From positions 65,586 to 129,585 of the forward strand of contig CAYPYG010000003.1 in the NCBI GenBank assembly GCA_964415175.1: a stretch of DNA of 64,000 nt. The letters are read 5' to 3'. A model generated the notes under the pieces. That model did not search any database. It was not told where the DNA came from and worked only from the letters and a program-made list of their open reading frames with translations. The DNA comes from an uncultured Elusimicrobiaceae bacterium. Its GTDB lineage: Bacteria > Elusimicrobiota > Elusimicrobia > Elusimicrobiales > UBA9959. This document shows, piece by piece, positions 1 to 53,351 of the stretch. Every line of letters begins with the position of its first letter. Position 1 is the first letter of the stretch. The translations under genes and the position numbers were made by a program.

Positions 1-2
1 TG

Positions 3-791
3 CTGCCGGACCTGCCCAAGATAATAAAGCTGGCCGCGAAGATCGGCTATCCCTGGATACAGGTGATGAGCAACGGCCTGAGGCTGGCCGATAAGGCCTA
101 TACGCGCTCCCTGATAGGGGCCGGGGCCAACCTGTTCCGCCTTTCGCTGCACGGCCCCGGGCCGGAGATACACGACCGGCTCGTCGGGGTGGACGGCGCC
201 TTCGCGAAGCTGACGGCCGCTTTCGGCAATATCAGGGAAGGCGGCGCCGAGCTCTGCGTCAACATGGCGCTCAACGCCCCCAATTACAGGTCGCTGCCGG
301 AGATGCTCGGACTGATAACCGGGCGTTTCGGCGTGCGCGACTTCAACATCATCTTCCCTCATTACAGCGGCATGATGGCCAGGAACGCGGACCTGCTCAA
401 GGTCAGCGTCACCAGGGCCGTGCCGTACCTGAGGAAGGCATTGGCGCTTCTGAAGGAGACCGGCGTACGCCCGGAGAGCCGGATACTCATAAATTTCTGC
501 CCCTGCAATATACCCGAGGCGGCCCACCTGATGGCGGAATGGGACCGCCCGGAGCGGGCGGAGGACGACGAGCCGCTCTACTACGTGGAGGGGAAGACCG
601 ACGCCGTTTACTCGGTCAAGGAACGCATACGGGTAAAGAACAAGTCCTGTTCCCGCTGCGTCTACGACAAGGTCTGCATGGGTTTCGAGAAATGGTACGC
701 CGACGTTTTCGGCCGCCGCGAGTTCCGCCCCGTACTCCGCAAGCCGGCCCCTTTCCCGCTGCGGCCGCTGCCCCGCCGGAAAGTCGCCTGA
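3..791 (+). CDS. Radical SAM protein, C-terminal portion (5' end outside window)
   Basis: The frame is open from base 3 (LPDLPKIIKLAAKIGYPWIQVMSNGLRL), so the GTG at 63 is internal. It has barrel-like strands (VMSNG, RLSLHG). The C-terminal NFCPCN...CSRCVYDKVCMG (Cx2Cx5C) tail is shared with 6508-7434 and with the tail of 50095-51885. Confidence 0.6.
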   Translation: MPDLPKIIKLAAKIGYPWIQVMSNGLRLADKAYTRSLIGAGANLFRLSLHGPGPEIHDRLVGVDGAFAKLTAAFGNIREGGAELCVNMALNAPNYRSLPEMLGLITGRFGVRDFNIIFPHYSGMMARNADLLKVSVTRAVPYLRKALALLKETGVRPESRILINFCPCNIPEAAHLMAEWDRPERAEDDEPLYYVEGKTDAVYSVKERIRVKNKSCSRCVYDKVCMGFEKWYADVFGRREFRPVLRKPAPFPLRPLPRRKVA

Positions 792-835
792 CCTGTCCCG
801 GACCCCCCTTCCGGCCGGACGGCCGTTCCGGGGGT

Positions 836-876: not shown

Positions 877-3378
877 GTGGAGAACATAGTATTTTTCGGC
901 AAAGGCGGCATCGGTAAAAGCACCATCGCCGCCAATGTTTCCGTCCTGCTGGCCGCCGCCGGCCGGAAGGTCCTGCATATCGGCTGCGACCCTAAGCGCG
1001 ATTCGACGCTCGCGCTGACCGGCCGCCGCATAAAGCCTTTCAGCGACGGCGGTTTCGCCGGCGCGGCCGCCCTGGCCGGCGCCGTTCACAAGGGCGCGAA
1101 GGGAATAGACTGCATAGAGGCCGGCGGTCCCCAGGCCGGCGTGGGGTGCGCGGGCGCAGGGATCGGGGCCATGCTCGACGCCGTGCGGGATTCCGGGCTG
1201 ATGGAGCGCAACGCCTACGATACCGTGATCTTCGACGTGCTGGGGGACGTGGTCTGCGGCGGTTTCGCCGCGCCGTTGCGGCGCGGTTTCACCAGCAAGG
1301 CCGTCATCGTAGTCTCCGAGGAGATCCTTTCCCTTTACGCCGCCAACAACCTGGTGGCGATGATAAACAACTACGCCAGGAACGGCGTGTACCTGGCCGG
1401 CCTGGCCGTCAACGCCAAGGATATTTCCGCCGTCCGCCGGACCGAGGAATTCGCAAGGGCCGTCGATACGCGGGTGCTGGGCGTGATACCGCGGGACCCG
1501 GCCGTCGGCAGGGCGGAGAAGGCCCGCAAGCCGGTCGTGCTGCTGGACCCGCGCAGCCCCGCCGCCGGCGCCCTGGCCGGGCTGACGAGGGGGATAATTT
1601 CCTCCGGGAAGCCGGCTTCACCGCCCCGCATGATGAGCGAGCGCGAATTCGAATCCTTTATAGGCGGCGCGGCGGCGGACGAGTCCCGGACCGGTCCCGC
1701 CCCGTCGGGGCGGCCGGCGCCGGTCCCGCCGCCGGCCCTGCTGGCCGCCGCCGGTTTCTCCGTGACGGGTCTCCTGGGCGGCCAGGTCGTATGCGCCTGG
1801 AAGAAGGGGGACGACGCCTGCAAGGTCTTCGTGGCCCCGCTCTCGGAGATCAGGCCCGGCATGACATCCGTCTCCGACTGGGCCTTCTGCTTCGCGCCGG
1901 GCGAAGAGCCGCGCGGCGACAGGGCTGCGTTCGAGTCCGCCGTGCGGGGGATCTCGGCGCTCCGCTTCGATGATTTCGTGGCGGCTTTCAGCGGAGGTCC
2001 GGATTTTTACGGCGACGCCGATTCCTTCGGCCGCACCGGTTACCATCCCCGCCTGCCGGAAGGCGACCGTCCCATAGACCAGCATACCGGCTTCGGCCAG
2101 TGGCACAGGTTCGTGTTCTCCGATAATTCAGGGGTCTGCGTCCCCCCGGGCACGGTCATAGTGGAGCACGGCGATATCGAGTGCCGCTTCAGCAGCTGTT
2201 CCAGCACCCTGCTCAATACTTTCCAGAAAATGGGGGGGCTCGCCAACGATCAGGCCCCGTCGATGGCGCCGTTCCTGCCCAAGGAAGGCTCGACCGTGAT
2301 GAACACGGATTTCGGTTACGGCGACGCCATACGGGGGGACGAGCGCAAGATGGCCGGGAGACTGGCCGCCGTCAAGACCAGGGGCAGCGCCGGGGGCCTG
2401 CTGGAGTTCTACAACGGCTGTTCGCCGCTGCTGCTCTCCAGCGACGTGAACAGTTTCCTGGAAAAGGCCTCGCGCGACCTCGGGATGGAAGTGCTGCGCG
2501 ACAATTTCAATAATTTCGAGGACGCCACTCCCGAGAAGGTCCGCGCGCGCGCGGCGCTGGTAGTCCGCCGGCTGGCCGCCCTGCGGAGGACGAAGCCGTC
2601 CTGCGATCTCAACCTCGTCAATTTCGCGTCATCCAAGGCGCTGCCGCTGGCGGACCTGCTCGCCGGGCGCGGTCTGTCGGCTGCCCCTCCCGAACGGGAC
2701 TTTTACGGTGATATCGCCGCCTCCCGCCTGCAGGTGCTGGCCTATCCGGACCCGGTGCTGACCACCGCCTTCGACGAGCTGAAGATAAAATGGACGGCGC
2801 CGCCGGCCCCCTACGGCTTCGCCGCCACCGAGGCCTGGCTGAGGGAACTCTTCGCCAGGCTCGGGCGCAAGGCGCCGCGCGGCGGCCTGGGGCCTTCCGC
2901 CGCGGAGGCCGCGGGCCGCTCCGCTCTTAAGAAGCGGCTTTCCCGCTTCGCGGCCGGATTCATCGCCTCTCCCGACGAGATCCCCACTCTGGAGGGGACC
3001 TGGGCGGTATCGGGAGTGCCGATGTTCTCGCTGCTGCGGGAAGCGGGCATGCCGGTGCGCCTTTTCGCCTATGCGCGGGACCGGGCGGCCCGGACGCTGG
3101 CCGTGAAAGAAGCGGGACTGCTCGGCAAGAGGACCGGCGCGAGGCCGAGGCTGCTCTTTTTCGATTCTCCCGCCGGTCTTCGCCGCGCGCTGTCGGCCGA
3201 CCGGACCATGCGCATAGTCTACTCCGACATCCCCGGCGACGCGCGGCTGGCCGAGGCGGGGAAGAACGATTTTTCGGCCGCCATGTGCGAACCGGGTTAC
3301 GAAGGGACCATAGAGACGATGCGCCGCCTGGCGAACCTTTGCGAATGGGAGTTCAATGAGCGATACGGCCGCCGATAA
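877..3378 (+). CDS. NifH-like Fe-protein/ATPase domain fused to NifD/NifE/BchN-like component-1 domain (copy 1)
   Basis: N-terminal ~255 aa carry P-loop GKGGIGKST, switch I CDPKRDST, and both Fe-protein cluster-Cys contexts (GGPQAGVGCAGAGIG and FDVLGDVVCGGFAAPLR). A P/A-rich linker follows. The C-terminal ~560 aa have component-1-like motifs VEHGDIECRF and FYNGCSPLLLSSD. GTG start with GAGGAGAG RBS. The same architecture recurs at 17215 and 21023. Confidence 0.85.
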   Translation: MENIVFFGKGGIGKSTIAANVSVLLAAAGRKVLHIGCDPKRDSTLALTGRRIKPFSDGGFAGAAALAGAVHKGAKGIDCIEAGGPQAGVGCAGAGIGAMLDAVRDSGLMERNAYDTVIFDVLGDVVCGGFAAPLRRGFTSKAVIVVSEEILSLYAANNLVAMINNYARNGVYLAGLAVNAKDISAVRRTEEFARAVDTRVLGVIPRDPAVGRAEKARKPVVLLDPRSPAAGALAGLTRGIISSGKPASPPRMMSEREFESFIGGAAADESRTGPAPSGRPAPVPPPALLAAAGFSVTGLLGGQVVCAWKKGDDACKVFVAPLSEIRPGMTSVSDWAFCFAPGEEPRGDRAAFESAVRGISALRFDDFVAAFSGGPDFYGDADSFGRTGYHPRLPEGDRPIDQHTGFGQWHRFVFSDNSGVCVPPGTVIVEHGDIECRFSSCSSTLLNTFQKMGGLANDQAPSMAPFLPKEGSTVMNTDFGYGDAIRGDERKMAGRLAAVKTRGSAGGLLEFYNGCSPLLLSSDVNSFLEKASRDLGMEVLRDNFNNFEDATPEKVRARAALVVRRLAALRRTKPSCDLNLVNFASSKALPLADLLAGRGLSAAPPERDFYGDIAASRLQVLAYPDPVLTTAFDELKIKWTAPPAPYGFAATEAWLRELFARLGRKAPRGGLGPSAAEAAGRSALKKRLSRFAAGFIASPDEIPTLEGTWAVSGVPMFSLLREAGMPVRLFAYARDRAARTLAVKEAGLLGKRTGARPRLLFFDSPAGLRRALSADRTMRIVYSDIPGDARLAEAGKNDFSAAMCEPGYEGTIETMRRLANLCEWEFNERYGRR

Positions 3379-4669
3379 AGTTTTCGAAAGGACTTACCAG
3401 CTGCCTTACCTGCTGGGGGTTTTCATGGCCGTCAACGCCGTGCGGGACGCCTGCCTGGTCGTGGACTCTCCCAACTGCGCTATGGTCAAGGCCGACCTGA
3501 TAGCCGGCAACCACGACCTCTTTTCCACGCTCCTCTCCCCCTCGGGCCGCCACCGCGTGGCCTGTACCATGGTGACCCCTTTCACCCCGCAGAAGAACCC
3601 GGAGAAAAGGGTGGCCGCCATACTGAACAGCATCGCCGGCTCCGGTGAATTCGGCGCCGTCCTGCTCACCGGCCTTCCTTTCGGCTGGCTGGCCGGGATG
3701 GATTACGACGGGATCGCGGCGGCCGTGCCGCCCGGTGTCCCGGCCGCCGCCGTTCCCGCAAAATCGATGGACCTGGACTGGTTGGAAGGCTACGACCTTT
3801 CGCTGGAGGCGCTGGCGCGCTCCCTGCGGTTCCCCGCCAGGCCCCGGCGCGCCGCCGGCAAGGTCGCCCTCGCGGGCTATATGCTGGACCGCAACGAGTT
3901 CGACCACGCGGCCAATCTGAAGGAACTTGAGAGGCTGCTGGCGCTCGCCGGCCTGGAACTCGTCTCCGTCTGGCCCTCCGGCGGCGGCGTGGCGGAACTC
4001 GCGAGGGCCGCCGAAGCTTCGCTGATCGTCTCGCTCCCCTACGGCCGACGGGCCGCCAGGACGCTGGCGGGGAGGACCGGGGCAAAGCTCCTGGAGACCG
4101 GGCTCCCCATGGGCCTGGGCGGCACTTCCGCCTGGCTGGCCGCCGTGAGAAAGGCCGCCGGGCTGAAAGGCGGACCTCCTCCCGCGCTGGCGGAGGCCGA
4201 ACGGGCCGCGGCGGCCGCGCTGGCCCCGGCGCTGCGGGTGCTCCGCAACCGGAACGTCCTCTTTGCCGGCGACCCCCATCTCTACTCCGCGTTCTCCTCG
4301 TTCGCGGCGGAACTCTGCGTCGGCGTGCCGGCGGCCCTGCTGGGCTCCTCCTCCAGAACGCTCGGCCCTTCCGCCGGACGGGCTGAGACCGTTCTCTTCG
4401 CCCCCTCCGCGTCCGAGGCGAGGTCCGCCCTGGCCGCCCTGCCGCGCTACCGCAAACCGGACCTGGCCGTGGCCAATTCTTTCGCCGTTACGGAGGGCTT
4501 CGCCGAAGGGCTGCCTTTCGTCGAGCTGGGTTTCCCGTCCTACGGGCATCACTGTCTTCTCGACGAACCTTATTTCGGCTATGCCGGCGCGCGCGTCCTG
4601 GCGGCGCGCATGCTGAACGCTCTGCAGGCGGGCCTGGCGGCGCCGTCTTTCAGGGAAAGAGGATTCTGA
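3356..4669 (+). CDS. NifK/NifN/BchB-like component-1 type subunit (copy 1)
   Basis: 437 aa with VVDSPNCAMVKADLIAGNHDLFSTLL, RVACTMV, LTGLPF and ELGFPSYGHHCL. It is clearly paralogous to 19661-20959 and 23644-24945. The ATG lies 23 nt inside the upstream gene. Confidence 0.7.
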   Translation: MSDTAADKVFERTYQLPYLLGVFMAVNAVRDACLVVDSPNCAMVKADLIAGNHDLFSTLLSPSGRHRVACTMVTPFTPQKNPEKRVAAILNSIAGSGEFGAVLLTGLPFGWLAGMDYDGIAAAVPPGVPAAAVPAKSMDLDWLEGYDLSLEALARSLRFPARPRRAAGKVALAGYMLDRNEFDHAANLKELERLLALAGLELVSVWPSGGGVAELARAAEASLIVSLPYGRRAARTLAGRTGAKLLETGLPMGLGGTSAWLAAVRKAAGLKGGPPPALAEAERAAAAALAPALRVLRNRNVLFAGDPHLYSAFSSFAAELCVGVPAALLGSSSRTLGPSAGRAETVLFAPSASEARSALAALPRYRKPDLAVANSFAVTEGFAEGLPFVELGFPSYGHHCLLDEPYFGYAGARVLAARMLNALQAGLAAPSFRERGF

Positions 4670-5549: not shown

Positions 5550-5551
5550 CG

Positions 5552-6499: not shown

Positions 6500-6507
6500 G
6501 CCGGGGC

Positions 6508-7474: not shown

Positions 7475-7506
7475 AAAAAAAAGCCCCCGGGGAGCCGGGG
7501 GCTTTC
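7475..7506 (-). terminator. Rho-independent terminator (bidirectional hairpin) after ygeW-like gene
   Basis: GCCCCCGG (7483-7490) / loop GGAG / CCGGGGGC (7495-7502). On the minus strand it is followed by an 8-T run (A-run 7475-7482 on plus). It lies 25-55 nt downstream of the stop at 7530. Confidence 0.75.
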
Positions 7507-8741: not shown

Positions 8742-8783
8742 GTTTTTTCTCCTGAATGATATCCTTAAAAAGGCTCCTCCGTC

Positions 8784-8797: not shown

Positions 8798-8810
8798 CGG
8801 ATGCTTAATG

Positions 8811-8842: not shown

Positions 8843-8844
8843 GT

Positions 8845-26403: not shown

Positions 26404-26405
26404 CG

Positions 26406-47283: not shown

Positions 47284-48689
47284 GCCGCGCTGTCCCTCTC
47301 CCGGCCGCGCGCCGGCTGCGCGCCGTCCCCTCTTCCCTGGACATATACATGACGGACGCCTGCAATATGCGCTGCGGCTACTGCGCCAGCGCCAGGTTCA
47401 TAGAGGGCGGCGGGGCCAGGACGCTGCCGCCGCGGCTCCTGCTGAGGGGAGTGGACGCCTTCGCGGCGCTGGTCGCCCCCCGCCGCGGCGCGGCCGATCC
47501 TGCCGCGGTGAGGGAGATCTCCTTCACCGGCGGCGAGCCGCTGCTCCGCTGGGACCTGCTGAGGGATTCGGTCCGGGCGATAAAGCGCGAATACCCCTGG
47601 CTCAAGCAGACCGTCTTCACCAACGGCACTCTGCTCACGCCGGAAAAGGCGGACACGCTGCTGCGCGCGGGCGTCAGGATAGTGGTGAGCCTCGACGGCG
47701 GCCGCGCCGTCAACGACCGGCACCGCCGGCTGGCCGACGGCCGCCCCGGCTTCGCGGCCGTGGCCGCGAACCTGCGCCGCCTCGGCGCCGCCCGCCGCGC
47801 GGAGCTGCACCTGATGGCCACCTTTACCTCCGCTACCGCCGGGAAACTGGTCGATACCGTGCGGCTGTTCAGGACCTTCGGCTGCCGCGACATACATCTC
47901 GGCCTGGACCTTTACGAGGACTGGTCCCCCGCGGCCCTGGCCCGCCTGCGGGCCGCCCTGGCGGAACTGCGCGGCTACTGCCTGCGCGGCGGCGCCGCCG
48001 TCCGGGGGCCGGGCGGGGACTGGGATTTCAACTTCTATTTCAAGGACCGCGTGTCCGCCTGCCTCGACCTGACGCCGTCGAACTCCTTCACCCTCTCGCC
48101 CGACGGCTTCTTCTATCCCTGCGACGAGCTCTGCATCTCGGCCGCGGACCCGGCGAAGTACGCCGTCGGGTCGGCGGAGAGCGGCCTGGACCTGCGCCGG
48201 CTGGAACGGGTCTACTCCGCCGTGGAGCGGCGCGTGAGGGGGCTGGACCTGGTCAACGGCGTGCTTTCGCCCATAGACAGGTATTTCCGCGCGGTACTGG
48301 ACGGGCGCGACCCGTCCGCCTCCCTGCGGGCCGGCGGGCGGGTGACGCGCGTCTTCCTGGAGGAGCTCGGCGGGCTGGTGGAAGTGGAGCGGCTTTTCAA
48401 ACTGCTGGTGCGCGCGCCCGGTTTCGGCGATCTCATGCACCGGCCCCGCCACGCCCTGCGCGCCGGGGCCCGCCGCGCGCGGCTGTCCGCGCCGGCTTCG
48501 CCCGCCGCGCTGGCGGCTTCGCGGGCCGCCGCGGACCTGCTGCTTTACTCCCCGGGGAAGCGCAAGGAACTGGTCCTGCGGAGCGAAGGGGCTTTCGGCG
48601 AGGCGGCCCGCGGCCTCGCCCTCTACGCGGCGCTCAAGGGCGCGCGGCTCGGCGGGCGGACCCGGGTGGGCCTGGAGGCGGGCCGGTGA
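47280..48689 (+). CDS. Radical SAM paralog P14
   Basis: SLDIYMTDACNMRCGYCAS; TGGEPLLRW; SLDGGRAVNDRHRRL; GFGDLMHRPRH; LLYSPGKRKEL; LKGARLGGRTRV. GTGA overlap at 47280-47283. Confidence 0.85.
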   Translation: MSRAVPLPAARRLRAVPSSLDIYMTDACNMRCGYCASARFIEGGGARTLPPRLLLRGVDAFAALVAPRRGAADPAAVREISFTGGEPLLRWDLLRDSVRAIKREYPWLKQTVFTNGTLLTPEKADTLLRAGVRIVVSLDGGRAVNDRHRRLADGRPGFAAVAANLRRLGAARRAELHLMATFTSATAGKLVDTVRLFRTFGCRDIHLGLDLYEDWSPAALARLRAALAELRGYCLRGGAAVRGPGGDWDFNFYFKDRVSACLDLTPSNSFTLSPDGFFYPCDELCISAADPAKYAVGSAESGLDLRRLERVYSAVERRVRGLDLVNGVLSPIDRYFRAVLDGRDPSASLRAGGRVTRVFLEELGGLVEVERLFKLLVRAPGFGDLMHRPRHALRAGARRARLSAPASPAALAASRAAADLLLYSPGKRKELVLRSEGAFGEAARGLALYAALKGARLGGRTRVGLEAGR

Positions 48690-50077
48690 AAAAGAACCCC
48701 GCCCTTCCGCTCTATCCGCGGGCCGAATTCCCCCGGGAGCTGGACGTCTGCCTGACCGACGCCTGCAACCTCGACTGCCGCTACTGCTATTTCACCGCCA
48801 AGGCCAGGACCGCGCCGTCCTCCCTCTCGCCGGCGCAGGTTGAGCGGGCGCTGGACCTTTACCTCGAGCGCCTGCCGGCCCGGCGCGTGCAGAAGTTCAG
48901 CTTTTCCGGCGGCGAGCCGCTGCTGCGCTGGGACTCGCTCATAAGCGGCGTGGCCTCCGCCCGCCGCCGGCTGGGCCCGCGGCCCAATATCGAAGTTTTC
49001 ACCAACGGCACCCTGCTCGACCGGCGTAAGGCGGAGGCCCTGCTGGCGCACGACCCCGAGCTGGTCATAAGCCTGGACGGGCCGCGCGCGGTCTGCGACG
49101 CGGGCCGCCGCTTCTACGGCCGCGGCGGCTCGGTATTCGACGCCGTCGACCGCAATCTCCGCGCGCTCGGGCGGGGACTGGTCTCGCGCTGCTTCGCCGG
49201 CTCCACTTTCAGCGCCGCGACGGTCTCCAGGATGCGCGAGAGCGTGGAGTACCTGCTGGAGCGCGGCTTTAAATGCGTGATAGTGGACCTGGACGTCCTG
49301 GCGCGCTGGGACCGGCGCGCGCTGGACGTCCTGCGCCGGCAGGCGGAGGGCCTCAAGAAACTTTACTCCTCTTCCATGAACCTGGGTTTCGGCGAGGTGC
49401 AGCAGCGGCTGCGCTTCGACTTCCTGATCTCGCGGGAGGAGCTGCGGCAGGTGGCGCGCCCCGCGGGGCTCAGGGAACTTTCCCTGGCGCCCGACGGGAA
49501 GTTCTACCCCAGCGGGCTGGTCTCCGGGCGCGGCGCGGAGAAGGCGCGCTACGCCGTCGGCAGCCTCGCGGAAGGTTTCGACACGGACAGGATGAACGCC
49601 GTGCTGGGCGAGCTGCGCGGCTATTTCGGCCGGCACGCCAGGAGCGGCTACAACGGCTGCCCCACCCACGTCTATTTCGCCTGCCGCCTGGAGGGGCGCT
49701 CCGCGGAGGAGGTCTTCGATTCGGGCGAACGCCTGTTCGGGGCGCTGGACCCGGTAGTGGGCCCCGTCATAGATTTCGAGCTGCTGCAGAACTCCCTGGC
49801 CTCGGCGAAGGACCTCGGGGATTTCGATCACCCGCCGCGGCTGGCGCCCGCCGCGGGCCCGGCGGAGCTGAGGCTCTCCCTTTCTCCCGGGGCGGGCCGG
49901 GCCAGGGACGCCGCGGACGCGGCGCTTTATTCGCCCGGCCCCTGCAAGCGCCTGGAACTGGCGGCCGCGGAGAACGACCCGCCCGACGCGCTGCGCCGCC
50001 TCGCGGCCTATTCCCTGATGAAGGCGCGGCTGCTGGGGAAGAAAGTCAGGCTCGCGGTCGCGGCGGGGGCCGATTAA
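48686..50077 (+). CDS. Radical SAM paralog P15
   Basis: GTG start with GTGA overlap at 48686-48689. ELDVCLTDACNLDCRYCYF; SGGEPLLRW; SLDGPRAVCDAGRRF; DLGDFDHPPRL; ALYSPGPCKRL; MKARLLGKKVRL. Confidence 0.85.
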   Translation: MKKNPALPLYPRAEFPRELDVCLTDACNLDCRYCYFTAKARTAPSSLSPAQVERALDLYLERLPARRVQKFSFSGGEPLLRWDSLISGVASARRRLGPRPNIEVFTNGTLLDRRKAEALLAHDPELVISLDGPRAVCDAGRRFYGRGGSVFDAVDRNLRALGRGLVSRCFAGSTFSAATVSRMRESVEYLLERGFKCVIVDLDVLARWDRRALDVLRRQAEGLKKLYSSSMNLGFGEVQQRLRFDFLISREELRQVARPAGLRELSLAPDGKFYPSGLVSGRGAEKARYAVGSLAEGFDTDRMNAVLGELRGYFGRHARSGYNGCPTHVYFACRLEGRSAEEVFDSGERLFGALDPVVGPVIDFELLQNSLASAKDLGDFDHPPRLAPAAGPAELRLSLSPGAGRARDAADAALYSPGPCKRLELAAAENDPPDALRRLAAYSLMKARLLGKKVRLAVAAGAD

Positions 50078-50094
50078 AGTATCATATTCACGGC

Positions 50095-51885
50095 ATGGCC
50101 ATGGACGATACGCAACTCAGGGCGCTTTTCGGGCTGATGGACGCGGAGAACCCGCCCGAATACCCGCCCCATTACCCGCCGCCCGCGCTCTGGAAAAAGA
50201 CCTTCTCCGGCGCGGACGCCGCCGCCGCCTGGCGGCGCGCGCTGGCTCGCCGCGGCGACCTGGTCCTCTACGTCCACCTGCCTTTCTGCCGAGAGGTCTG
50301 CGCTTTCTGCGGCTTCTACGCCCGCCCCTGCCCCGGTCCCGGCGCCGTCGACGATTATCTCTCCGCGCTGGAGAGGGAGGCGGCCCTGCTCTCGCCCCTT
50401 TTCGCGGGCCGCCGCTTCAAATGGCTCTGTTTCGGCGGCGGCACGCCGTCGCTGCTCTCCGGCCCGCAGCTGGAGCGCCTCTTCGACGCGGTGAAAGGGA
50501 ACTTCCGGCCCGCGCGGGGGGCCCGCACCGCCTTCGAATCGCACCCGGACAGCCTGGACCCGGCCAAGCTGCGGCTGCTCAAGAAGCTCGGCGTGGACTG
50601 GCTTTCCATCGGCGTGCAGACCTTCGACGACGGGGTGCTGAAAAAGAACGGCCGCCGGCAGGACAATTCCAGGGTGCCGGGCCTGGTGCGCGCCGCCCGG
50701 GCCGCGGGCATAAAGAACGTCCAGCTCGACCTCATCGCCGGCCTGCCCTTCCAGTCCCGGGAGGCTTTCGAGGCCGACGTGGAGAAGGCCGCGCGGCTGG
50801 ACCCCGAGCGCATCTACCTCTTCCCGTTCCAGGCCAAGGAACGCGTGCGGCTGAAGGCGCGGCAGGCGCCCTGGCTGTGGGAGGCCTACCGCCGCGCGGT
50901 GGAGTCGCTCTCCCGGCGGGGCTACGAGCTCAGCTGCGGCCGCTGGCTTTATAAAAGGAGCGGCGGCGACTGGCCTTACAGCTACGACCAGGGCGAGCGC
51001 ATGTCCCGCGATTTCTACTCGGTGCTGGGTCTCGGCGCCGGCGCCATCTCCTACGCCAGGTACGGCGCGCGTTACCAGAACCTGGCGGACCCCGCCGACT
51101 ACGCGCGGGCGCTGTCCGGCGGCCGCCTGCCCGCGGCCAGGGGCTGCCGGCTGGGCGAAAAGGAGGAGGCGCTCAATTTCCTCCTGCTCAATTTCCTCCA
51201 GCGCGGCGCGCTGGACCGGCGGGAATTCCGCTCCGTCTTCGGCCGCGGCCCGCGCGGCGCCTTCGGCCGGGTCCTGGACTCGCTGGCCGCCGACGGTACG
51301 CTGGTCGCCTCCCGGGACGGCTGGCTCCTGGACGACAGGGAGAACGGCCTGTTCCGTCTCAGGAAGGCCTTTTACCCGGCGCGGCCGCTGACCGCCGCCG
51401 CGCGCGGCTGCGGCCGGCGCCTGGTCTCCGCGGCGCGCGCCGCGCGCCGGCCTTCCGCCGCGACGGCAGGGAGCGGCCGCGACGGCGCCCCCGGCACGCT
51501 CGTTTTCGAAGCGGGGCGCGCCCCTTTCGCCGCGCTCGCGCCCGCGCTGCTGCGGGAGATAAAAGCGCGCCGTCCCGTGACGGTCCTTCTCTACTGCGCC
51601 GGGCCCGGGCCGGGCCCCGCGCTGCCGCGCCTGGCGGAGCTGGTCGGCCGCGCGGGGCTGAAGGCGGCCGTCAACCTGCCGCCCTGCCTGCTGCCCGGCC
51701 TGCCGCGGCTGCCACAGGCCGCGCCGGCCGGGAGCGGCGATCCCGGCGTCTTCCGGCCGGAAGGCTGGGTCAAGCCGGCGCGCTGCGCCGACTGCGCGCT
51801 GCAGCTGGAATGCCCGGGCCTGGACGCCGCCTACGCCGCGCGCCACGGCGCGCGGGCGGTGAAGCCGCTGAGGAGGCGCCCGTGA
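50095..51885 (+). CDS. HemN/HemW-family radical SAM protein with ~130-aa Cys-containing C-terminal extension
   Basis: Start at ATG 50095 (MAMDDTQ). LYVHLPFCREVCAFCGFY matches the HemN-type cluster motif. Also GGGTPSLL and SIGVQTFDD. The tail (~51493-51882) has NLPPCLLPG...CADCALQLECPG (Cx2Cx5C), as in 3-791 and 6508-7434. Confidence 0.85.
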   Translation: MAMDDTQLRALFGLMDAENPPEYPPHYPPPALWKKTFSGADAAAAWRRALARRGDLVLYVHLPFCREVCAFCGFYARPCPGPGAVDDYLSALEREAALLSPLFAGRRFKWLCFGGGTPSLLSGPQLERLFDAVKGNFRPARGARTAFESHPDSLDPAKLRLLKKLGVDWLSIGVQTFDDGVLKKNGRRQDNSRVPGLVRAARAAGIKNVQLDLIAGLPFQSREAFEADVEKAARLDPERIYLFPFQAKERVRLKARQAPWLWEAYRRAVESLSRRGYELSCGRWLYKRSGGDWPYSYDQGERMSRDFYSVLGLGAGAISYARYGARYQNLADPADYARALSGGRLPAARGCRLGEKEEALNFLLLNFLQRGALDRREFRSVFGRGPRGAFGRVLDSLAADGTLVASRDGWLLDDRENGLFRLRKAFYPARPLTAAARGCGRRLVSAARAARRPSAATAGSGRDGAPGTLVFEAGRAPFAALAPALLREIKARRPVTVLLYCAGPGPGPALPRLAELVGRAGLKAAVNLPPCLLPGLPRLPQAAPAGSGDPGVFRPEGWVKPARCADCALQLECPGLDAAYAARHGARAVKPLRRRP

Positions 51886-53351
51886 AGAAAAAGGAGACGC
51901 TGCCGATAGGCTCCTTCGACATCTGCCTGTCCAACCGCTGCAACCTGGCGTGCCGGTACTGCTATTTCGATTCCATAAACCGGGGCGCGCCGCGGTTCCT
52001 GGACTTCGCGGCCGTGAAGAAGGCCGTCGACGCCTATGTCTCCCTCGTTTCCGTCAGGGGCATAGACAAGATCAGCGTCGCGGGCGGCGAGCCGTTCCTG
52101 GATTTCCCGCTGCTGCTGAAGATAGCGAAGTACATACGGCGTTCCTGCGGGCCGCGGACGGAGATAGAGGTCTTCACCAACGGCACGCTGGCGACGCCGG
52201 AGAAAGTGCGGCGCCTGCTTCCCTACACCGGCAAGATAGTGGTGAGCCTGGACGGCGGAAAGGGGAGCAACGATCTCAACCGGGTCTTCCTGAAAGGCGG
52301 AGGTTCGGTCTTCGAGGCCGTGATGAACAATCTCCGCGGCCTCACCGCGGCGGAGCGGCTGAAGGTGTGCGCCAGCATGACGGTGACGGCCGCCACCGCC
52401 GGCGGCCTCTGTTCCAATGTGCGGTTCCTGCGCGGGCTGGGCCTGGGCGAGGTGCAGATAAACCTGAACCTGCTCGAGCGGTGGTCCGCCCCGTCGCTGG
52501 AGCGTCTGCGCGCCTCGGTCCGGGAACTGAAGTCCTATTACGGCGCGCTGGCGGCCGCGCGGCTGCGCTCCTTCGAGGGTTTCCGCTTCGGCCTGGAGTA
52601 CATCCTGCTCAAATGGGACGAGACTCTCAGCGAGAGCGGGGTCTTCAAGGAGATCTCCGTCGCGCCGGACGGTCGTTTCTATCCCTGCGGCATAGTCTCC
52701 ACTTACGGCCCGCAGAAAGAGGTTTTCGCCGTCGGTTCGCTGGAAAAGGGGTTCGACCGCCGCCGTCTTCGTTCGCTGCGCGGCAAGGCCGTCCGCGCCA
52801 TGCTGCCCGCGGACCGCGGGATAGGGCTGCTGGAATACATCCCCAACCCGATGCTGCTCTATTTCGAGACCCGGCTCAAAGGCGAGGACCTGCGGGAGGT
52901 CTTCGCCAACGCGCGCCGCGTCTTCAAGGTCTTCTACGACGAGCTTTCCGTCTTCCTGCGGCTGGAGAGGTTCTTCGACATCCTCTCCAGCGACCCGCTG
53001 GTGGGCGACTTCTCCCACGAGCCGCCCTTCAGGTCCGGAAAGGGACTGCGGTCCCTGGCCGTCGCCATGGGCGAGCCCGGCCGACCGGCCGCCAAGGCCT
53101 GCGCCTGCGGCAAGGGCTGGGTCGGTTTCCCGGGCCTGGCGCAGCGGCGGCGCGCGGCCGACCTGCTGCTCTATTCCCCCGGCGGGAACAAGGAGCTGCG
53201 GCTGCGCTCGGAGCGTCCGTCGGAGGAGTTCGAACTGACCGGCTCCGCGGCCGTCTACGCGGCCCTCAAGGCCCGCGCGCTGGGAGGAAAGCTGAAGGTG
53301 AAAGTGGAACTCCCGCCGGGCGGCGTCACTTCTTCTTCTTCACGTACTTGA
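51882..53351 (+). CDS. Radical SAM paralog P16
   Basis: GTG start with GTGA overlap at 51882-51885. SFDICLSNRCNLACRYCYF; AGGEPFLDF; SLDGGKGSNDLNRVF; LVGDFSHEPPF; LLYSPGGNKEL; LKARALGGKLKV. Confidence 0.85.
   Translation: MKKKETLPIGSFDICLSNRCNLACRYCYFDSINRGAPRFLDFAAVKKAVDAYVSLVSVRGIDKISVAGGEPFLDFPLLLKIAKYIRRSCGPRTEIEVFTNGTLATPEKVRRLLPYTGKIVVSLDGGKGSNDLNRVFLKGGGSVFEAVMNNLRGLTAAERLKVCASMTVTAATAGGLCSNVRFLRGLGLGEVQINLNLLERWSAPSLERLRASVRELKSYYGALAAARLRSFEGFRFGLEYILLKWDETLSESGVFKEISVAPDGRFYPCGIVSTYGPQKEVFAVGSLEKGFDRRRLRSLRGKAVRAMLPADRGIGLLEYIPNPMLLYFETRLKGEDLREVFANARRVFKVFYDELSVFLRLERFFDILSSDPLVGDFSHEPPFRSGKGLRSLAVAMGEPGRPAAKACACGKGWVGFPGLAQRRRAADLLLYSPGGNKELRLRSERPSEEFELTGSAAVYAALKARALGGKLKVKVELPPGGVTSSSSRT

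What the first reader, a model, noticed from the sequence alone, without database searches (positions are those of the whole stretch)
1..53351. Nitrogenase-like reductases embedded in a ~50-kb radical-SAM super-cluster of unknown product
In 53 kb I count three NifH-fusion/NifK-like pairs. There are 16 members of one radical-SAM paralog family and four other rSAM genes: 3-791 (partial), 6508-7434, 11895-12968 and the HemN-like gene at 50095-51885. There is also a U32 pair, an aldo/keto reductase, a PEP-utilising-type phosphotransferase, a TPR protein and a Cys4 module. I see no nifB/nifE/nifN-like scaffold genes, no separate NifD and no small precursor-peptide ORF. Characterised Nif-like systems (DPOR BchLNB, COR BchXYZ, CfbCD of F430 synthesis, methylthio-alkane reductases) perform ATP-driven reductions of tetrapyrroles or C-S bonds. 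The HemN-family gene hints at a tetrapyrrole-type substrate. From memory, Meheust et al. (ISME J 2020) reported a new group of nitrogenase paralogs co-occurring with many radical SAM proteins in groundwater Elusimicrobia, Gracilibacteria and Myxococcales. They predicted reduction of a tetrapyrrole to a novel cofactor. I cannot verify that this window belongs to that group. No biochemistry is known to me for such loci.
Basis: partly seen in the sequence, partly recalled or inferred. Interest (0 to 1): 0.95.

Follow-up and report, generated by a model that had tools for sequence, protein, structure and literature searches.

The report
Nitrogenase-like reductases in radical-SAM supercluster
This is a very large example of an already published but biochemically uncharacterised gene cluster from groundwater Elusimicrobia. 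Three ATP-driven nitrogenase-like reductases sit among about 25 radical-SAM enzymes, which probably build an unknown, heavily modified cofactor or natural product without oxygen.

Summary
The window holds three NifH::NifD-like fusion genes, each followed by a NifK-like gene. It also holds 16 paralogous radical-SAM (rSAM) genes, one of them a pseudo-enzyme, and four other rSAM genes. A U32 protein with a Cys-rich partner, an aldo/keto reductase, a PEP-dikinase-like enzyme and a TPR protein are present too. There is no NifB/E/N.

The source is an Elusimicrobiales MAG. The NifH domains group with those of Elusimicrobia GWF2_62_30, a genome Meheust et al. (2020) name as carrying "Group VI" nitrogenase paralogs. 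They fail the curated thresholds for NifH, CfbC, BchL and BchX. A July 2026 review says Group VI has no characterised member. The locus is therefore a new, unusually large member of a known but unsolved kind.

New details:
- The cluster continues at least 10 kb left of the window.
- The H::D fusion is present in Elusimicrobia but absent in Myxococcales.
- The 16-paralog family has a peptide-maturase-like fold, lacks auxiliary-cluster cysteines, and carries a C-terminal domain found in only 70 of 1.84 billion representatives.
- A YgeW/YgeY/carbamate-kinase module and polytopic membrane proteins are embedded in the cluster.

The most likely function is ATP-driven C=C reductions plus radical tailoring of a tetrapyrrole-like small molecule. 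The substrate is unproven. Peptide, lipid/quinone and N-heterocycle substrates remain open.

The parts
3..791 (+). g01, 3' part of a 336-aa rSAM (HxsC/AhbC/NirJ-like, with a CX2CX5C C-terminal motif), directly upstream of the first reductase
   Evidence: Pfam Radical_SAM. The full-length gene is in L081 8905-9915. NCBIfam gives HxsC4 81 bits, AhbC 46 and NirJ 41, all below cutoff. Relatives lie next to the reductase genes in L004, L005, L088 and L094.
877..3378 (+). g02, NflH::NflD fusion (833 aa), reductase pair 1
   Evidence: Fer4_NifH 220 bits plus Oxidored_nitro 33 bits. P-loop, switch I/II, C91 and C127 are invariant, as are D-domain C436 and C515. The AF2 H domain matches MarH/NifH at TM 0.82-0.89.
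3356..4669 (+). g03, NflK-like subunit of pair 1
   Evidence: Oxidored_nitro 120 bits. Only 25-47 bits to BchN/BchB/BchZ/NifK, against cutoffs of at least 324. One conserved Cys (C41) plus D31, D37, H53-D54 and H66-R67.
4725..5555 (-). g04, Cys-rich partner of the U32 protein (five invariant Cys); family not detectable
   Evidence: No Pfam or NCBIfam hit. Conserved next to U32 in L001, L089 and L093 at 37-50% identity. hhalign against g05 is not significant.
5552..6511 (-). g05, U32-family protein, weakly UbiU-like (candidate O2-independent hydroxylase)
   Evidence: Pfam Peptidase_U32 46.7 bits, above the 22.4 cutoff. UbiU 48.9 bits against a cutoff of 440.
6508..7434 (-). g06, 308-aa rSAM forming a conserved triad with g05 and g04
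   Evidence: Radical_SAM 48 bits. HxsC-like 63 bits. 55-64% identical orthologues sit beside the U32 genes in L001, L089 and L093.
7530..8741 (-). g07, YgeW knotted carbamoyltransferase, followed by a strong terminator at 7506-7479
   Evidence: NCBIfam YgeW 688 bits, above the 453 cutoff. Terminator. A 91% orthologue lies in cluster L094.
8845..9516 (+). g08, poly-gamma-glutamate-hydrolase-like zinc amidase
   Evidence: Pfam Gamma_PGA_hydro 146 bits. Orthologue in L094.
9513..10613 (+). g09, carbamate-kinase-like protein
   Evidence: NCBIfam arcC 252 bits, below the 358 cutoff. Orthologue in L094 at 90%.
10624..11865 (+). g10, threonine-synthase-family PLP enzyme
   Evidence: PALP 252 bits. 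NCBIfam PRK08197 312 bits, above the 303 cutoff. Orthologue in L094 at 93%.
11895..12968 (+). g11, rSAM with a SPASM-like CX6CX2C tail; distant 17th relative of the paralog family
   Evidence: nif11-like maturase 92 bits and PapB 82 bits. 24-33% identical to the paralogs.
13072..14106 (+). g12, membrane-anchored protein with 14 Cys and a Lys/Glu-rich tail
   Evidence: Sequence. No family hit. Homologue in L089 (E 6e-35) beside HxsD-like proteins and an rSAM.
14149..15666 (+). g13, rSAM paralog family member 1
   Evidence: Radical_SAM 71 bits plus Fer4_12. Family membership.
15663..17210 (+). g14, TPR protein directly upstream of reductase pair 2
   Evidence: TPR families. A TPR gene also precedes the reductase in L003 and is present in L093.
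17215..19683 (+). g15, NflH::NflD fusion (822 aa), pair 2
   Evidence: Fer4_NifH 191 bits plus Oxidored_nitro 27 bits. Motifs.
19661..20959 (+). g16, NflK-like subunit, pair 2
   Evidence: Oxidored_nitro 109 bits.
21023..23644 (+). g17, NflH::NflD fusion (873 aa), pair 3; contains a 66-nt tandem duplication at 22656-22789
   Evidence: Fer4_NifH 201 bits plus Oxidored_nitro 28 bits. Tandem repeat.
23644..24945 (+). g18, NflK-like subunit, pair 3
   Evidence: Oxidored_nitro 115 bits.
24946..26409 (-). g19, rSAM paralog
26406..27905 (-). g20, rSAM paralog
28039..29427 (+). g21, rSAM paralog
29424..30692 (+). g22, degenerate paralog without the CX3CX2C cluster motif (pseudo-rSAM)
   Evidence: Only 3 Cys. 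The motif columns are gapped in alignment A2.
30795..32090 (+). g23, aldo/keto reductase whose C-terminal extension is related to the g30/g24 extension domain
   Evidence: Aldo_ket_red 118 bits. hhalign 92%.
32100..34283 (+). g24, rSAM paralog (727 aa) with a C-terminal g30-like domain
34280..35845 (+). g25, rSAM paralog
   Evidence: 85-95% orthologues in L090 and L091.
35833..37251 (+). g26, rSAM paralog
37248..38648 (+). g27, rSAM paralog (the one modelled)
   Evidence: AF2 pLDDT 85.9. Foldseek top hits are CteB, ChlB and anSME.
38645..40942 (+). g28, PEP-utilising (dikinase-type) enzyme with the phospho-His motif GSHAA and an N-terminal fragment of the paralog barrel
   Evidence: PPDK_N plus PEP-utilizers. 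Weak PEP synthase/PigC/RedH/Rph similarity. hhalign 96.7% to the paralog profile. Sequence.
40939..42315 (+). g29, rSAM paralog
   Evidence: hhalign 99.9%. 92-95% orthologues in L090 and L091.
43188..44546 (+). g31, rSAM paralog
44543..45865 (+). g32, rSAM paralog
45862..47283 (+). g33, rSAM paralog
47280..48689 (+). g34, rSAM paralog
48686..50077 (+). g35, rSAM paralog
50095..51885 (+). g36, HemN-family rSAM (596 aa)
   Evidence: STM4012 family 198 bits, HemN 156 and ChuW 127, all below cutoff. Best PDB matches are HemN 1olt at 120 bits and NocN at 96 bits.
51810..53351 (+). g37, rSAM paralog, last gene of the cluster (the orthologue suggests a start at 51882)

Best explanation
The locus is a Group VI nitrogenase-like (Nfl) and radical-SAM biosynthetic supercluster of an Elusimicrobiales bacterium. 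It is at least 63 kb long, and the window shows its right-hand 53 kb.

Reductases. Three paralogous ATP-driven reductases are encoded. Each is a NifH-like ATPase and [4Fe-4S] domain fused through a linker of about 160-200 residues to a very divergent NifD-like domain, and it works with a NifK-like partner.
- Shown: intact P-loop, switch I/II and the two cluster cysteines in all three H domains; two invariant Cys in D and one in K; no NifB/E/N.
- Inferred: two H domains dimerise around a [4Fe-4S] cluster, and ATP hydrolysis gates electron transfer to a simple inter-subunit Fe-S cluster at the D/K interface. That cluster would have three Cys plus an Asp or other ligand, a count like that of DPOR. 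The enzyme would then perform two-electron reductions of C=C (or C=N) bonds in a conjugated organic substrate. The three enzymes would act at different positions or stages, as DPOR and COR do.

Tailoring (inferred). About 25 rSAM enzymes tailor the same scaffold without oxygen. They comprise two HemN-family enzymes, five AhbC/NirJ/HxsC-like enzymes, g11, and 16 individually conserved paralogs of a lineage-specific family. A U32 (UbiU-like) protein with its Cys-rich partner would add hydroxyl groups. An aldo/keto reductase and a phospho-histidine dikinase would process or activate oxygen functions. A SufS-like desulfurase would supply sulfur. A YgeW/YgeY/carbamate-kinase module would make or remove ureido groups.

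Substrate. The most likely substrate class is a tetrapyrrole-type macrocycle, giving a highly reduced, heavily modified cofactor or pigment. This is the least secure step.
For: Identity as Group VI:
- All named close homologues are from Elusimicrobia, and the contig is an Elusimicrobiales MAG.
- The H domains form a clade with GWF2_62_30 and Myxococcales. They are 57-62% identical within the clade and 40-44% identical to ordinary NifH/CfbC.
- GWF2_62_30 and the Myxococcales are named in Meheust 2020.
- Curated cutoffs for NifH, CfbC, BchL and BchX are not met, and the D domain hits nothing.

Mechanism:
- H-domain motifs are invariant, and the AF2 H domain matches MarH/NifH at TM 0.82-0.89.
- D has C436 and C515; K has C41 plus conserved Asp and His.
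- No NifB/E/N occurs in the 74 kb examined.

A biosynthetic pathway rather than recent duplication:
- Each paralog has a one-to-one orthologue at 82-97% identity, in the same order, in related MAGs. Paralogs are only 24-53% identical to each other.

Tetrapyrrole hints:
- The K-like proteins' best, though weak, curated hits are BchN/BchB/BchZ.
- There are two HemN-family rSAMs, and the best PDB match of g36 is HemN.
- The g01/u8 families show AhbC/NirJ-like similarity.
- Two divergent TP_methylase genes sit in cluster L087, closest to CbiE and CbiF.
- B12-binding rSAMs occur in L088, L094 and L026.
- A HemN_C rSAM lies directly upstream of the reductase in L094.
- The only well-studied precedent I know for nitrogenase-like reductases working with HemN-type and B12-type rSAMs is anaerobic (bacterio)chlorophyll synthesis (established knowledge).
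Against: - No chelatase, uroporphyrinogen-pathway gene or tetrapyrrole amidotransferase appears in any of the roughly 15 neighbourhoods examined.
- Meheust et al. found uroporphyrinogen III synthesis in only 5 of 22 Group VI genomes, and found the reductase in Gracilibacteria.
- Some genomes carry the reductase pair with no or only one neighbouring rSAM (L085, L084).
- By sequence and by predicted fold, the 16 paralogs resemble peptide- and protein-modifying SPASM enzymes more than AhbC/AhbD or HemN.
- The YgeW/YgeY/carbamate-kinase module and the recurrent polytopic membrane proteins have no obvious role in tetrapyrrole chemistry.
- All tetrapyrrole-related hits are below the curated thresholds.
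- The neighbour-joining support for the clade is only 95 of 200 bootstraps.
Confidence: 0.45

Rival explanations
1. Peptide or protein modification. The rSAM paralogs are maturases that install many different modifications on a ribosomal peptide or on a cluster-encoded protein such as the Cys-rich g12. The nitrogenase-like enzymes reduce a modified residue or a cross-link.
For: - The best curated hits of the paralogs and of g11 are peptide maturases: PapB 82-115 bits, plus CcpM, nif11-type, HxsB and QhpD.
- The best PDB sequence matches are CteB, ChlB and anSME.
- The best fold matches are CteB, ChlB, anSME, SkfB and SuiB.
- In L089 a g12 homologue lies beside two HxsD-like proteins and an rSAM.
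- M20 and PGA-hydrolase-like amidases and a TPR protein are present.
Against: - No precursor ORF fits in the cluster, because intergenic gaps are at most 133 bp.
- There is no RRE domain, leader peptidase or export ABC transporter.
- No SPASM auxiliary-cluster cysteine is conserved in the 16 paralogs.
- All scores are far below the equivalog cutoffs.
- g12 has an N-terminal membrane anchor, whereas rSAM enzymes are cytoplasmic.
- No nitrogenase-like enzyme is known to act on peptides.
Confidence: 0.2
2. Membrane-associated lipid or quinone tailoring. The substrate is a polyprenyl, quinone-like or other hydrophobic compound. The U32 protein hydroxylates it, HemN-type class C enzymes methylate it, the nitrogenase-like enzymes saturate or dearomatise it, and a membrane enzyme transfers it.
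For: - The U32 triad (g06-g05-g04) is among the most conserved accessory units. It occurs in the window, L001, L089 and L093, with a fragment in L087.
- g05 is weakly UbiU-like.
- Polytopic membrane proteins recur inside clusters. u3 has 7 TM-like segments, L093 has two such proteins (one between the HD and K genes), and L087 has one.
- u3 has a sub-threshold PMT/GT-C hit.
- Several rSAMs hit Tes and HpnH weakly.
- HemN-like enzymes include menaquinone methyltransferases (established knowledge).
Against: - No prenyltransferase, polyprenyl synthase, quinone-pathway or lipid-pathway gene was detected.
- The membrane proteins of different lineages show no mutual similarity.
- The UbiU score is 49 bits against a cutoff of 440.
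- g04 is not detectably a U32 protein.
Confidence: 0.12
3. Anaerobic catabolism of an N-heterocycle such as a purine or urate. The nitrogenase-like enzymes carry out ATP-driven reductive dearomatisation in place of YgfK/UacX. YgeW, YgeY, carbamate kinase and a PLP enzyme then degrade the resulting ureido-amino acid to pyruvate, ammonia and ATP.
For: - g07 is a YgeW equivalog (688 bits against a cutoff of 453) and u6 is a YgeY equivalog (553 against 321). g09 is carbamate-kinase-like and g10 is a PLP enzyme.
- YgeW, YgeY, YqeA and YgeX catalyse the last steps of reductive uric-acid degradation, and the dearomatising reductase varies between lineages (PMC12507026).
- YgeY sits inside the rSAM operon upstream of g02 and also next to the reductase in the distant L087.
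- The whole module recurs in L094.
Against: - No XdhD, SsnA or HyuA homologue is in the cluster.
- A catabolic route gives no role to about 25 rSAM enzymes.
- ygeW has its own terminator.
- L094 is a close relative, so deep conservation is shown only for YgeY.
- g10 belongs to the threonine-synthase family, not to the YgeX family.
Confidence: 0.08
4. The fused nitrogenase-like proteins have no organic substrate of their own. They serve as ATP-driven low-potential electron pumps that reduce the [4Fe-4S] clusters of the neighbouring rSAM enzymes.
For: - The reductase associates with many unrelated rSAM families across phyla.
- Every rSAM enzyme needs a low-potential reductant (established knowledge).
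- The D domain is extremely divergent and hits no curated family.
Against: - The D/K pair is retained with conserved Cys, Asp and His residues.
- Three specialised paralogous pairs are kept.
- Some genomes have the pair without neighbouring rSAMs.
- No nitrogenase-family precedent that I know of supports this role.
Confidence: 0.07
5. Genuine nitrogen fixation by an unusual nitrogenase.
For: NifH-like, NifD-like and NifK-like domains are present.
Against: - NifH scores 193-213 bits against a cutoff of 394.
- The D domain has no NifD hit, and the K-like proteins reach at most 25 bits to NifK.
- Only 3 of the 6 P-cluster cysteine positions are kept.
- No NifB/E/N was found.
Confidence: 0.01

Closest known systems
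Group VI nitrogenase-like (NflHDK) loci of groundwater Elusimicrobia (Meheust et al. 2020; reviewed in Chem Rev 2026, PMC13474568)
   Same: - Same phylum and the same H-domain clade as GWF2_62_30.
- The ATP-binding motifs and both cluster cysteines are kept.
- D and K are very divergent, with few cluster cysteines.
- There is no NifB/E/N.
- Several reductase copies occur per genome, surrounded by rSAM genes that include HemN-type ones.
   Different: - This locus is larger than any described there. It has about 25 rSAM genes in at least 63 kb, against a stated maximum of 13.
- The texts I could read do not mention the H::D fusion, the lineage-specific 16-paralog family, the U32 triad, the YgeW/YgeY/carbamate-kinase module or the membrane proteins.
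DPOR (BchLNB/ChlLNB) and COR (BchXYZ) of (bacterio)chlorophyll synthesis
   Same: - Both are two-component, ATP-dependent reductases with a simple [4Fe-4S] catalytic cluster.
- Paralogous enzymes are used for different C=C bonds.
- The weak best curated hits of the K-like proteins are BchN/BchB/BchZ.
- In anaerobes these enzymes work alongside HemN-type and B12-type rSAM enzymes.
   Different: - All curated thresholds are missed by a wide margin.
- The Cys distribution is 2 (D) plus 1 (K), rather than 3 (N) plus Asp (B).
- The Fe-protein is fused to the catalytic subunit.
- No bch or chl genes are nearby.
CfbCD (Ni-sirohydrochlorin a,c-diamide reductive cyclase of F430 synthesis)
   Same: CfbC is the best-scoring or near-best-scoring curated model for the H domain (190-220 bits). 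Both enzymes would act in cofactor biosynthesis.
   Different: - The scores are about half the cutoff of 402.
- CfbD is homomeric, whereas here distinct D and K subunits are present.
- No cfbA, cfbB or cfbE genes are present.
SPASM/twitch rSAM peptide and protein maturases (CteB, PapB, CcpM, anSME)
   Same: These are the best sequence and fold matches of the 16 paralogs. They share the CX3CX2C core and a remnant of the SPASM beta-hairpin (DGxFYP).
   Different: - No auxiliary-cluster cysteines are conserved.
- There is no RRE domain and no precursor gene.
- The paralogs carry a unique C-terminal beta-alpha-beta-alpha-beta domain with the motifs PGFGDFxHxPK and FLYSPG. It is found in only 70 of 1.84 billion representatives.
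Terminal module of reductive uric-acid degradation (YgeW, YgeY, YqeA, YgeX)
   Same: YgeW and YgeY pass the equivalog thresholds. A carbamate-kinase-like protein and a PLP enzyme accompany them.
   Different: - The upstream enzymes XdhD, YgfK, SsnA and HyuA are absent.
- The PLP enzyme is ThrC-like, not YgeX-like.
- The module is embedded in rSAM and reductase operons.

Membership tests
Group VI nitrogenase-like system (Meheust 2020) | The NifH-like sequence groups with Elusimicrobia lineage IV/V and Myxococcales sequences, outside groups I-V | tested here: met
   In a neighbour-joining tree of 94 H domains, the three window domains fall in an 18-member pure clade with GWF2_62_30 (L001) and Myxococcales (L005, L006, L011). 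Bootstrap support is 95 of 200. Identity is 57-62% within the clade and 40-44% to other NifH-type proteins. No BchL or BchX references were in the tree.
Group VI nitrogenase-like system (Meheust 2020) | The nucleotide-binding motif and the two [4Fe-4S] cysteines (Av Cys97 and Cys132) are retained | tested here: met
   GKGGIGKST, GCDPKxDS, GVGCAG (C91) and DVLGDVVCGGF (C127) are invariant in 15 of 15 sequences.
Group VI nitrogenase-like system (Meheust 2020) | D-like and K-like proteins are highly divergent and lack part of the P-cluster cysteines and the FeMo-co ligands | tested here: met
   D has only C436 and C515 invariant. K has only C41 conserved. The D domain has no NCBIfam hit, and K reaches at most 47 bits to any curated model. 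Exact equivalence to Av Cys275 and His442 was not aligned.
Group VI nitrogenase-like system (Meheust 2020) | No NifB/NifEN maturation genes; many rSAM genes in the neighbourhood | tested here: met
   None was found in the 64-kb window plus 10 kb upstream. The same 74 kb holds 25 rSAM-type genes. Genome-wide absence could not be tested.
Nitrogenase NifHDK | NifH, NifD and NifK equivalog scores; six P-cluster cysteines; NifB/E/N present | tested here: not met
   NifH scores 193-213 bits against a cutoff of 394. D has no hit. K scores at most 25 bits against 427. Three conserved cysteines were found instead of six. No NifB/E/N.
DPOR / COR (BchLNB, BchXYZ) | Equivalog scores for BchL, BchX, BchN, BchB, BchY and BchZ; bch genes nearby | tested here: not met
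   BchL scores 143-171 bits against 345, and BchX 130-148 against 331. The K-like proteins score 23-47 bits against cutoffs of at least 324. No bch genes are in the cluster.
DPOR / COR (BchLNB, BchXYZ) | Inter-subunit [4Fe-4S] cluster with three Cys plus one Asp | tested here: inconclusive
   Three conserved Cys (two in D, one in K) and invariant Asp residues in K (D31, D37) give the same ligand count but a different distribution. No structure or spectroscopy is available.
CfbCD | CfbC equivalog score; homomeric CfbD; cfbABE context | tested here: not met
   CfbC scores 190-220 bits against 402. Distinct D and K genes are present, and there are no cfb genes.
rSAM/SPASM peptide maturases | CX3CX2C rSAM cluster motif | tested here: met
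   Present in 15 of 16 paralogs and absent in g22.
rSAM/SPASM peptide maturases | Seven-Cys SPASM (or twitch) motif for auxiliary clusters | tested here: not met
   No Cys outside the rSAM motif is conserved in A2 (16 sequences) or A3 (31 sequences).
rSAM/SPASM peptide maturases | Equivalog score for a named maturase; adjacent precursor peptide or RRE | tested here: not met
   The best hit is PapB at 82-115 bits against a cutoff of 340. No space exists for a precursor ORF, and there is no N-terminal RRE because the rSAM motif starts near residue 20.
HemN / HemN-like class C rSAM (g36 and u7) | Equivalog score | tested here: not met
   g36 scores 198 bits to STM4012 (cutoff 380), 156 to HemN (325) and 127 to ChuW (400). 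u7 scores 130 and 126. Family-level similarity is clear, with HemN 1olt at 120 bits.
Peptidase U32 / UbiU-UbiV hydroxylases | U32 domain in both partners; UbiU/UbiV equivalog | tested here: inconclusive
   g05 passes Pfam U32 (46.7 bits against 22.4), but UbiU scores 49 bits against 440. g04 has no U32 hit, and hhalign of g04 against g05 gives a probability of 1.3%.
YgeW carbamoyltransferase / YgeY hydrolase | NCBIfam equivalog score | tested here: met
   g07 scores 688 bits against 453. u6 (L081 5152-6342) scores 553 bits against 321.

The most novel reading that the evidence does not exclude
The cluster is not a tetrapyrrole pathway at all. Instead it is an anaerobic assembly line in which tethered nitrogenase-like reductases work with a physically integrated array of 16 specialised rSAM enzymes. 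The accessory enzymes would dock through shared barrel fragments. The system would build or remodel a new class of molecule, either a peptide or protein-derived product or a membrane-bound or N-heterocyclic cofactor. That would be the first nitrogenase-family enzyme acting outside N2, tetrapyrrole and C-S chemistry.
Probability: 0.3. Interest if true: 0.9.

Novelty: new member of a known kind. Interest (0 to 1): 0.62.

Why it matters
Group VI is the only major branch of the nitrogenase superfamily with no characterised member, and the organisms that carry it are uncultured. This locus is an unusually complete and information-rich example.

- It has three reductase types, each with orthologues in other genomes.
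- Each enzyme is a single-chain Fe-protein/catalytic-subunit fusion with an H:D:K ratio of 1:1:1. That poses a direct question about how Fe-protein docking cycles work when the partners are tethered.
- Its private family of 16 rSAM enzymes has a new C-terminal domain.
- The accessory modules (U32 triad, SufS-like plus rSAM pair, YgeW/YgeY/carbamate kinase, membrane proteins) narrow the chemistry that needs testing.

If the product were identified, it would probably be a new cofactor or natural-product class made entirely by oxygen-independent radical and low-potential reductive chemistry.

Tried and rejected
- Standard ORF listing was unusable at 68% GC. I replaced it with a GC3 frame analysis.
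- Foldseek of the full fusion model returned only NifH-type hits in the 50 rows shown, so the D-domain fold neighbours were not obtained.
- hhalign of g04 against g05 was not significant with three-sequence profiles.
- Rfam found no riboswitch or other RNA in the window or the upstream 22 kb. There are no tRNAs.
- Promoter and terminator scans were at chance level except for the terminator after ygeW. I therefore did not use them for operon structure.
- The journal version of Meheust et al. (PMC7785019) is not held. I could not match accession numbers against its supplementary NifH list and used the bioRxiv text instead.
- u3 has no PDB match and only a sub-threshold PMT hit.
- My first bootstrap script timed out. 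I rewrote it with my own neighbour-joining code, and support for the Group VI clade is only moderate.
- I considered an HXS-type antiphage system because of the HxsB/HxsC/HxsD-like hits. I rejected it because the scores are far below cutoff, g12 has no His-x-Ser repeats, and no such repeat protein is encoded.
- I considered g01-type rSAMs as NifB analogues. They show no NifB similarity.

Full report
**Observation**

The window is 63-74% G+C, so raw ORF lists are dominated by spurious frames. I derived gene models from the third-position GC signal and scanned all 46 with Pfam.

- Three proteins of 822-873 aa carry an N-terminal Fer4_NifH domain (191-220 bits) and a weak C-terminal Oxidored_nitro match. 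They are g02 877-3378, g15 17215-19683 and g17 21023-23644.
- Each is followed by an overlapping or abutting Oxidored_nitro protein of about 435 aa (109-120 bits): g03, g16 and g18.
- All-vs-all BLASTP recovers exactly 16 full-length paralogous rSAM proteins at 24-53% identity. It also finds a distant 17th relative (g11), the related pair g01/g06, and a HemN-family protein (g36).
- One paralog, g22, has lost the CX3CX2C motif.
- The aldo/keto reductase, the PPDK_N plus PEP-utilizers protein and the TPR protein are confirmed.
- Of the 'U32 pair', g05 is a U32 protein. g04 is a conserved Cys-rich partner with no detectable U32 similarity.
- There is no NifB/E/N, no separate NifD, and no intergenic space above 133 bp for a precursor peptide.

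**Extent**

The left edge of the finding is the edge of the window, not of the cluster. The same contig is found in NCBI MAGs GCA_029557855.1 and GCA_035340895.1. It carries a further 10 kb of co-directional, mostly overlapping genes upstream of g02.
- Five more rSAM genes are there: one double-domain protein, one second HemN-family protein and three HxsC/AhbC/NirJ-like proteins.
- There is also a 516-aa protein with seven hydrophobic segments, a SufS-like desulfurase, and a YgeY-family hydrolase that passes its equivalog cutoff (553 bits against 321).

The right edge at 53351 is real. SpoIID-TPR, an ECF sigma/anti-sigma pair, a subtilase, a GT2 glycosyltransferase and a pilin-like protein follow.

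**What it is**

All named close homologues of the fusion protein come from Elusimicrobia MAGs. A scan of species-representative genomes returned full-length relatives in several places:
- Elusimicrobia GWF2_62_30 (L001), at 46% identity over the full length, with a second pair, the U32 triad and g01-type rSAMs;
- Elusimicrobia RBG_16_66_12;
- Myxococcales MAGs (L005, L011).

Meheust et al. (bioRxiv 10.1101/765248) define 'Group VI' nitrogenase paralogs from exactly these Elusimicrobia lineages. They name GWF2_62_30, report homologues in Myxococcales and Gracilibacteria, and note up to 13 neighbouring rSAM genes.

In my neighbour-joining tree of 94 NifH-type domains, the three window domains lie in an 18-member clade made only of these Elusimicrobia and Myxococcales sequences. 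Bootstrap support is 95 of 200. Identity is 57-62% inside the clade and 40-44% to ordinary NifH, CfbC and NflH.

Curated NCBIfam models give a membership test.
- The H domains reach only about half the cutoffs: CfbC 190-220 against 402, NifH 193-213 against 394, BchL 143-171 against 345, BchX 130-148 against 331.
- The D domains hit nothing.
- The K-like proteins reach 23-47 bits to BchN, BchB, BchZ and NifK, against cutoffs of at least 324.

PDB sequence searches agree.

[quoted passage not shown] The locus is therefore a new member of a known, unsolved kind.

**Anatomy of the reductases**

- The P-loop, switch I, switch II and both cluster cysteines (C91 and C127 in g02) are invariant in 15 diverse fusion proteins.
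- The AF2 model (pLDDT 78.7) has five parts. The H domain covers residues 1-263 and matches MarH and NifH at TM 0.82-0.89. A disordered stretch follows at 265-280, then a small beta-rich domain at 285-372, a low-confidence region at 375-470, and the D domain at 470-825.
- The D domain keeps two invariant Cys, in the motifs EHGDxEC and GCSP. The K-like protein keeps one Cys plus invariant Asp, His and Arg residues. That is three Cys in total, compatible with a single inter-subunit [4Fe-4S] cluster as in DPOR. This is an inference.
- In Myxococcales, H and D are separate genes with abutting or overlapping stop and start codons, and D carries the 'linker' as an N-terminal extension. In L026 the order is D, K, H, as separate genes. 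The fusion is therefore a feature of the Elusimicrobia branch. Neither paper's searchable text mentions it.
- The fusion fixes H:D:K at 1:1:1, half the canonical Fe-protein complement. This implies alternating use of one H2 dimer or formation of higher-order assemblies (inference).
- Each of the three paralog types finds its best match in other genomes. The g15 type matches L089, L001, L094 and L085. The g17 type matches L002 and L084. The g02 type matches L001. The triplication is therefore old and functionally partitioned.

**The rSAM suite**

- The 16 paralogs keep only the rSAM cluster motif. No SPASM or twitch cysteine is conserved.
- Even so, their best curated matches are peptide maturases: PapB at 89-115 bits against a cutoff of 340, plus CcpM and HxsB.
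- Their best PDB sequence matches are CteB, ChlB and anSME.
- A confident AF2 model of g27 (pLDDT 85.9) has the same fold neighbours by Foldseek: CteB, ChlB, anSME, SkfB and SuiB.
- A C-terminal domain of about 170 residues is family-specific. It consists of a long helix followed by beta-alpha-beta-alpha-beta, and carries the motifs PGFGDFxHxPK, FLYSPG and LYSxxKA. An exhaustive HMM search of 1.84 billion representatives found it in only 70 proteins, almost always in the same architecture. A word-indexed search found full-length relatives only in Elusimicrobiales.
- Related MAGs carry the same array in the same order. One-to-one orthologues are 82-97% identical, whereas paralogs are 24-53% identical. 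Each paralog is therefore individually maintained.
- Fragments of the paralog barrel are fused to non-rSAM enzymes. The N-terminus of the dikinase g28 matches the paralog profile (hhalign 96.7%). The C-terminal extensions of the AKR g23 and of g24 are related to the stand-alone g30. This suggests, by inference, physical integration into one complex.

**Accessory modules and their conservation**

I examined 15 other neighbourhoods.
- The minimal unit is HD plus K. L085 has no adjacent rSAM, L084 has one, and L086 has one between two HD genes.
- Recurrent modules:
  - the g06-rSAM/U32/g04 triad (window, L001, L089, L093);
  - g01-type rSAMs (L004, L005, L088, L094);
  - a pair of a roughly 280-aa rSAM and a SufS-like protein (window, L094, L093);
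  - HemN-type rSAMs (L004, L026, L094);
  - B12-binding rSAMs (L088, L094, L026);
  - TPR or HEAT proteins (window, L003, L093, L085);
  - polytopic membrane proteins (u3; two in L093, one of them between HD and K; one in L087).
- g07 is a YgeW equivalog at 688 bits against 453. Together with YgeY, a carbamate-kinase-like protein and a ThrC-family PLP enzyme, it mirrors the terminal module of reductive uric-acid degradation (PMC12507026). The whole module recurs in the related L094, and YgeY recurs beside the reductase in the very distant L087. Its role is unexplained.

**Function**

I commit to an oxygen-independent biosynthetic pathway.
- The three tethered reductases perform ATP-driven two-electron reductions of a conjugated small molecule.
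- The rSAM enzymes, the U32 protein, the AKR and the dikinase tailor that molecule.

A tetrapyrrole-type substrate is still the best single guess, at about 0.3-0.35. The support is:
- the K-like proteins lean weakly toward DPOR subunits;
- there are two HemN-family enzymes, and HemN is the best PDB match of g36;
- the g01/u8 families resemble AhbC and NirJ;
- divergent CbiE/CbiF-like methylases sit in cluster L087;
- B12-rSAMs are present in several clusters;
- anaerobic bacteriochlorophyll synthesis is a precedent.

Against it:
- no chelatase or uroporphyrinogen-pathway gene appears in any neighbourhood;
- only 5 of 22 Group VI genomes make uroporphyrinogen III;
- the paralogs resemble peptide maturases;
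- the ureido module and the membrane proteins are unexplained.

Peptide or protein, lipid or quinone, N-heterocycle-catabolic and electron-pump readings remain possible. Each is listed with its evidence. Nitrogen fixation is excluded.

**Verdict**

The finding is not a new kind of system. It is an exceptionally large and informative member of the uncharacterised Group VI nitrogenase-like/rSAM loci, with several features not discussed in the literature I could read.

Noticed in passing
L081 1-9915 (same contig, upstream of window position 1): The cluster continues at least 10 kb to the left. It holds a 658-aa double rSAM, rSAMs of 399, 279, 448 (HemN-like) and 371 aa, a 516-aa protein with seven TM-like segments (sub-threshold PMT/GT-C hit), a SufS-like desulfurase and a YgeY-family hydrolase.
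   Followed up: yes
window 877-3378, 17215-19683, 21023-23644; L005 10001-12926; L011 10001-12924; L026 9665-13479: The NifH::NifD fusion is present in Elusimicrobia. In Myxococcales, H and D are separate genes with abutting or overlapping stop and start codons. In L026 the order is D, K, H. The fusion fixes H:D:K at 1:1:1, half the canonical Fe-protein complement.
   Followed up: partly
L092 10001-14674 (protein P0093): A different fusion family of 1080-1106 aa has two tandem NifH domains plus an Oxidored_nitro domain and is followed by a K-like gene. It sits directly after a Peripla_BP_2/FecCD/ABC_tran importer of the heme, B12 or siderophore type.
   Followed up: partly
window 38645-39030 (g28 N-terminus), 31665-32087 (g23 C-terminus), 33600-34283 (g24 extension), 42296-43135 (g30): Fragments of the rSAM paralog barrel, or of a related Cys-containing half-domain, are fused to the dikinase, the aldo/keto reductase and one paralog. 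The same domain also occurs as the stand-alone g30. These may be docking modules for a multi-enzyme complex.
   Followed up: partly
window 29424-30692 (g22): One of the 16 paralogs has lost the CX3CX2C radical-SAM cluster motif but keeps the rest of the fold and the C-terminal domain, so it looks like a pseudo-enzyme. I could not check whether its orthologues share the loss.
   Followed up: no
window 7530-11865; L081 5152-6342; L094 1899-6201 and 15802-16992; L087 8695-9906: The cluster embeds a YgeW equivalog, a YgeY equivalog, a carbamate-kinase-like protein, a ThrC-family PLP enzyme and a PGA-hydrolase-like amidase. Four of these mirror the terminal steps of reductive uric-acid degradation. 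Their role here is unexplained.
   Followed up: partly
window 7479-7506 (minus strand): A strong intrinsic terminator (12-bp GC-rich stem and a T8 tail) lies directly after ygeW. It separates ygeW from the g06-g05-g04 operon.
   Followed up: no
window 13072-14106 (g12); L089 17834-18949: g12 is a membrane-anchored protein with 14 Cys and a Lys/Glu-rich coiled tail, lying between the rSAMs g11 and g13. Its homologue in L089 lies next to two HxsD-like proteins and a 487-aa rSAM.
   Followed up: partly
L093 12389-13987 and 16806-18398; L087 18608-19813 and 5335-6804: Polytopic membrane proteins of unknown family (5-8 hydrophobic segments) recur inside divergent Group VI clusters. One lies between the HD and K genes. 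They show no detectable similarity between lineages.
   Followed up: partly
L087 14853-15512 and 7527-7973: Two divergent tetrapyrrole-methylase-superfamily genes lie in a low-GC (28%) Elusimicrobiota Group VI cluster. Their weak best matches are CbiE (23 bits) and CbiF (E 0.015).
   Followed up: partly
L085 13856-17377: A 1173-aa HEAT-repeat protein, which includes PBS-lyase-type HEAT repeats, directly follows an HD-K pair that has no neighbouring rSAM genes.
   Followed up: no
window 22656-22789: A 66-nt tandem duplication (2 copies, 79% match) inside g17 creates an insertion just after the conserved GCSP cysteine motif of the D domain.
   Followed up: no
L094 7950-8684: A Dph6-like PP-loop protein (Diphthami_syn_2, 72 bits) lies next to the HemN_C rSAM and the HD gene in a related cluster. 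It is a candidate ATP-dependent amidating enzyme.
   Followed up: no
window 53326-55395; L085 19594-21801; L090 18943-20136: A large SpoIID(-TPR) gene flanks the cluster in the window and in L090, and lies near the HD-K pair in L085. This is probably conserved synteny rather than part of the system.
   Followed up: no
L026 15260-21160: A 1966-aa open frame has four Radical_SAM stretches, three B12-binding stretches and a UPF0004 match. It is either a giant multi-rSAM fusion or several genes read through in a high-GC frame.
   Followed up: no
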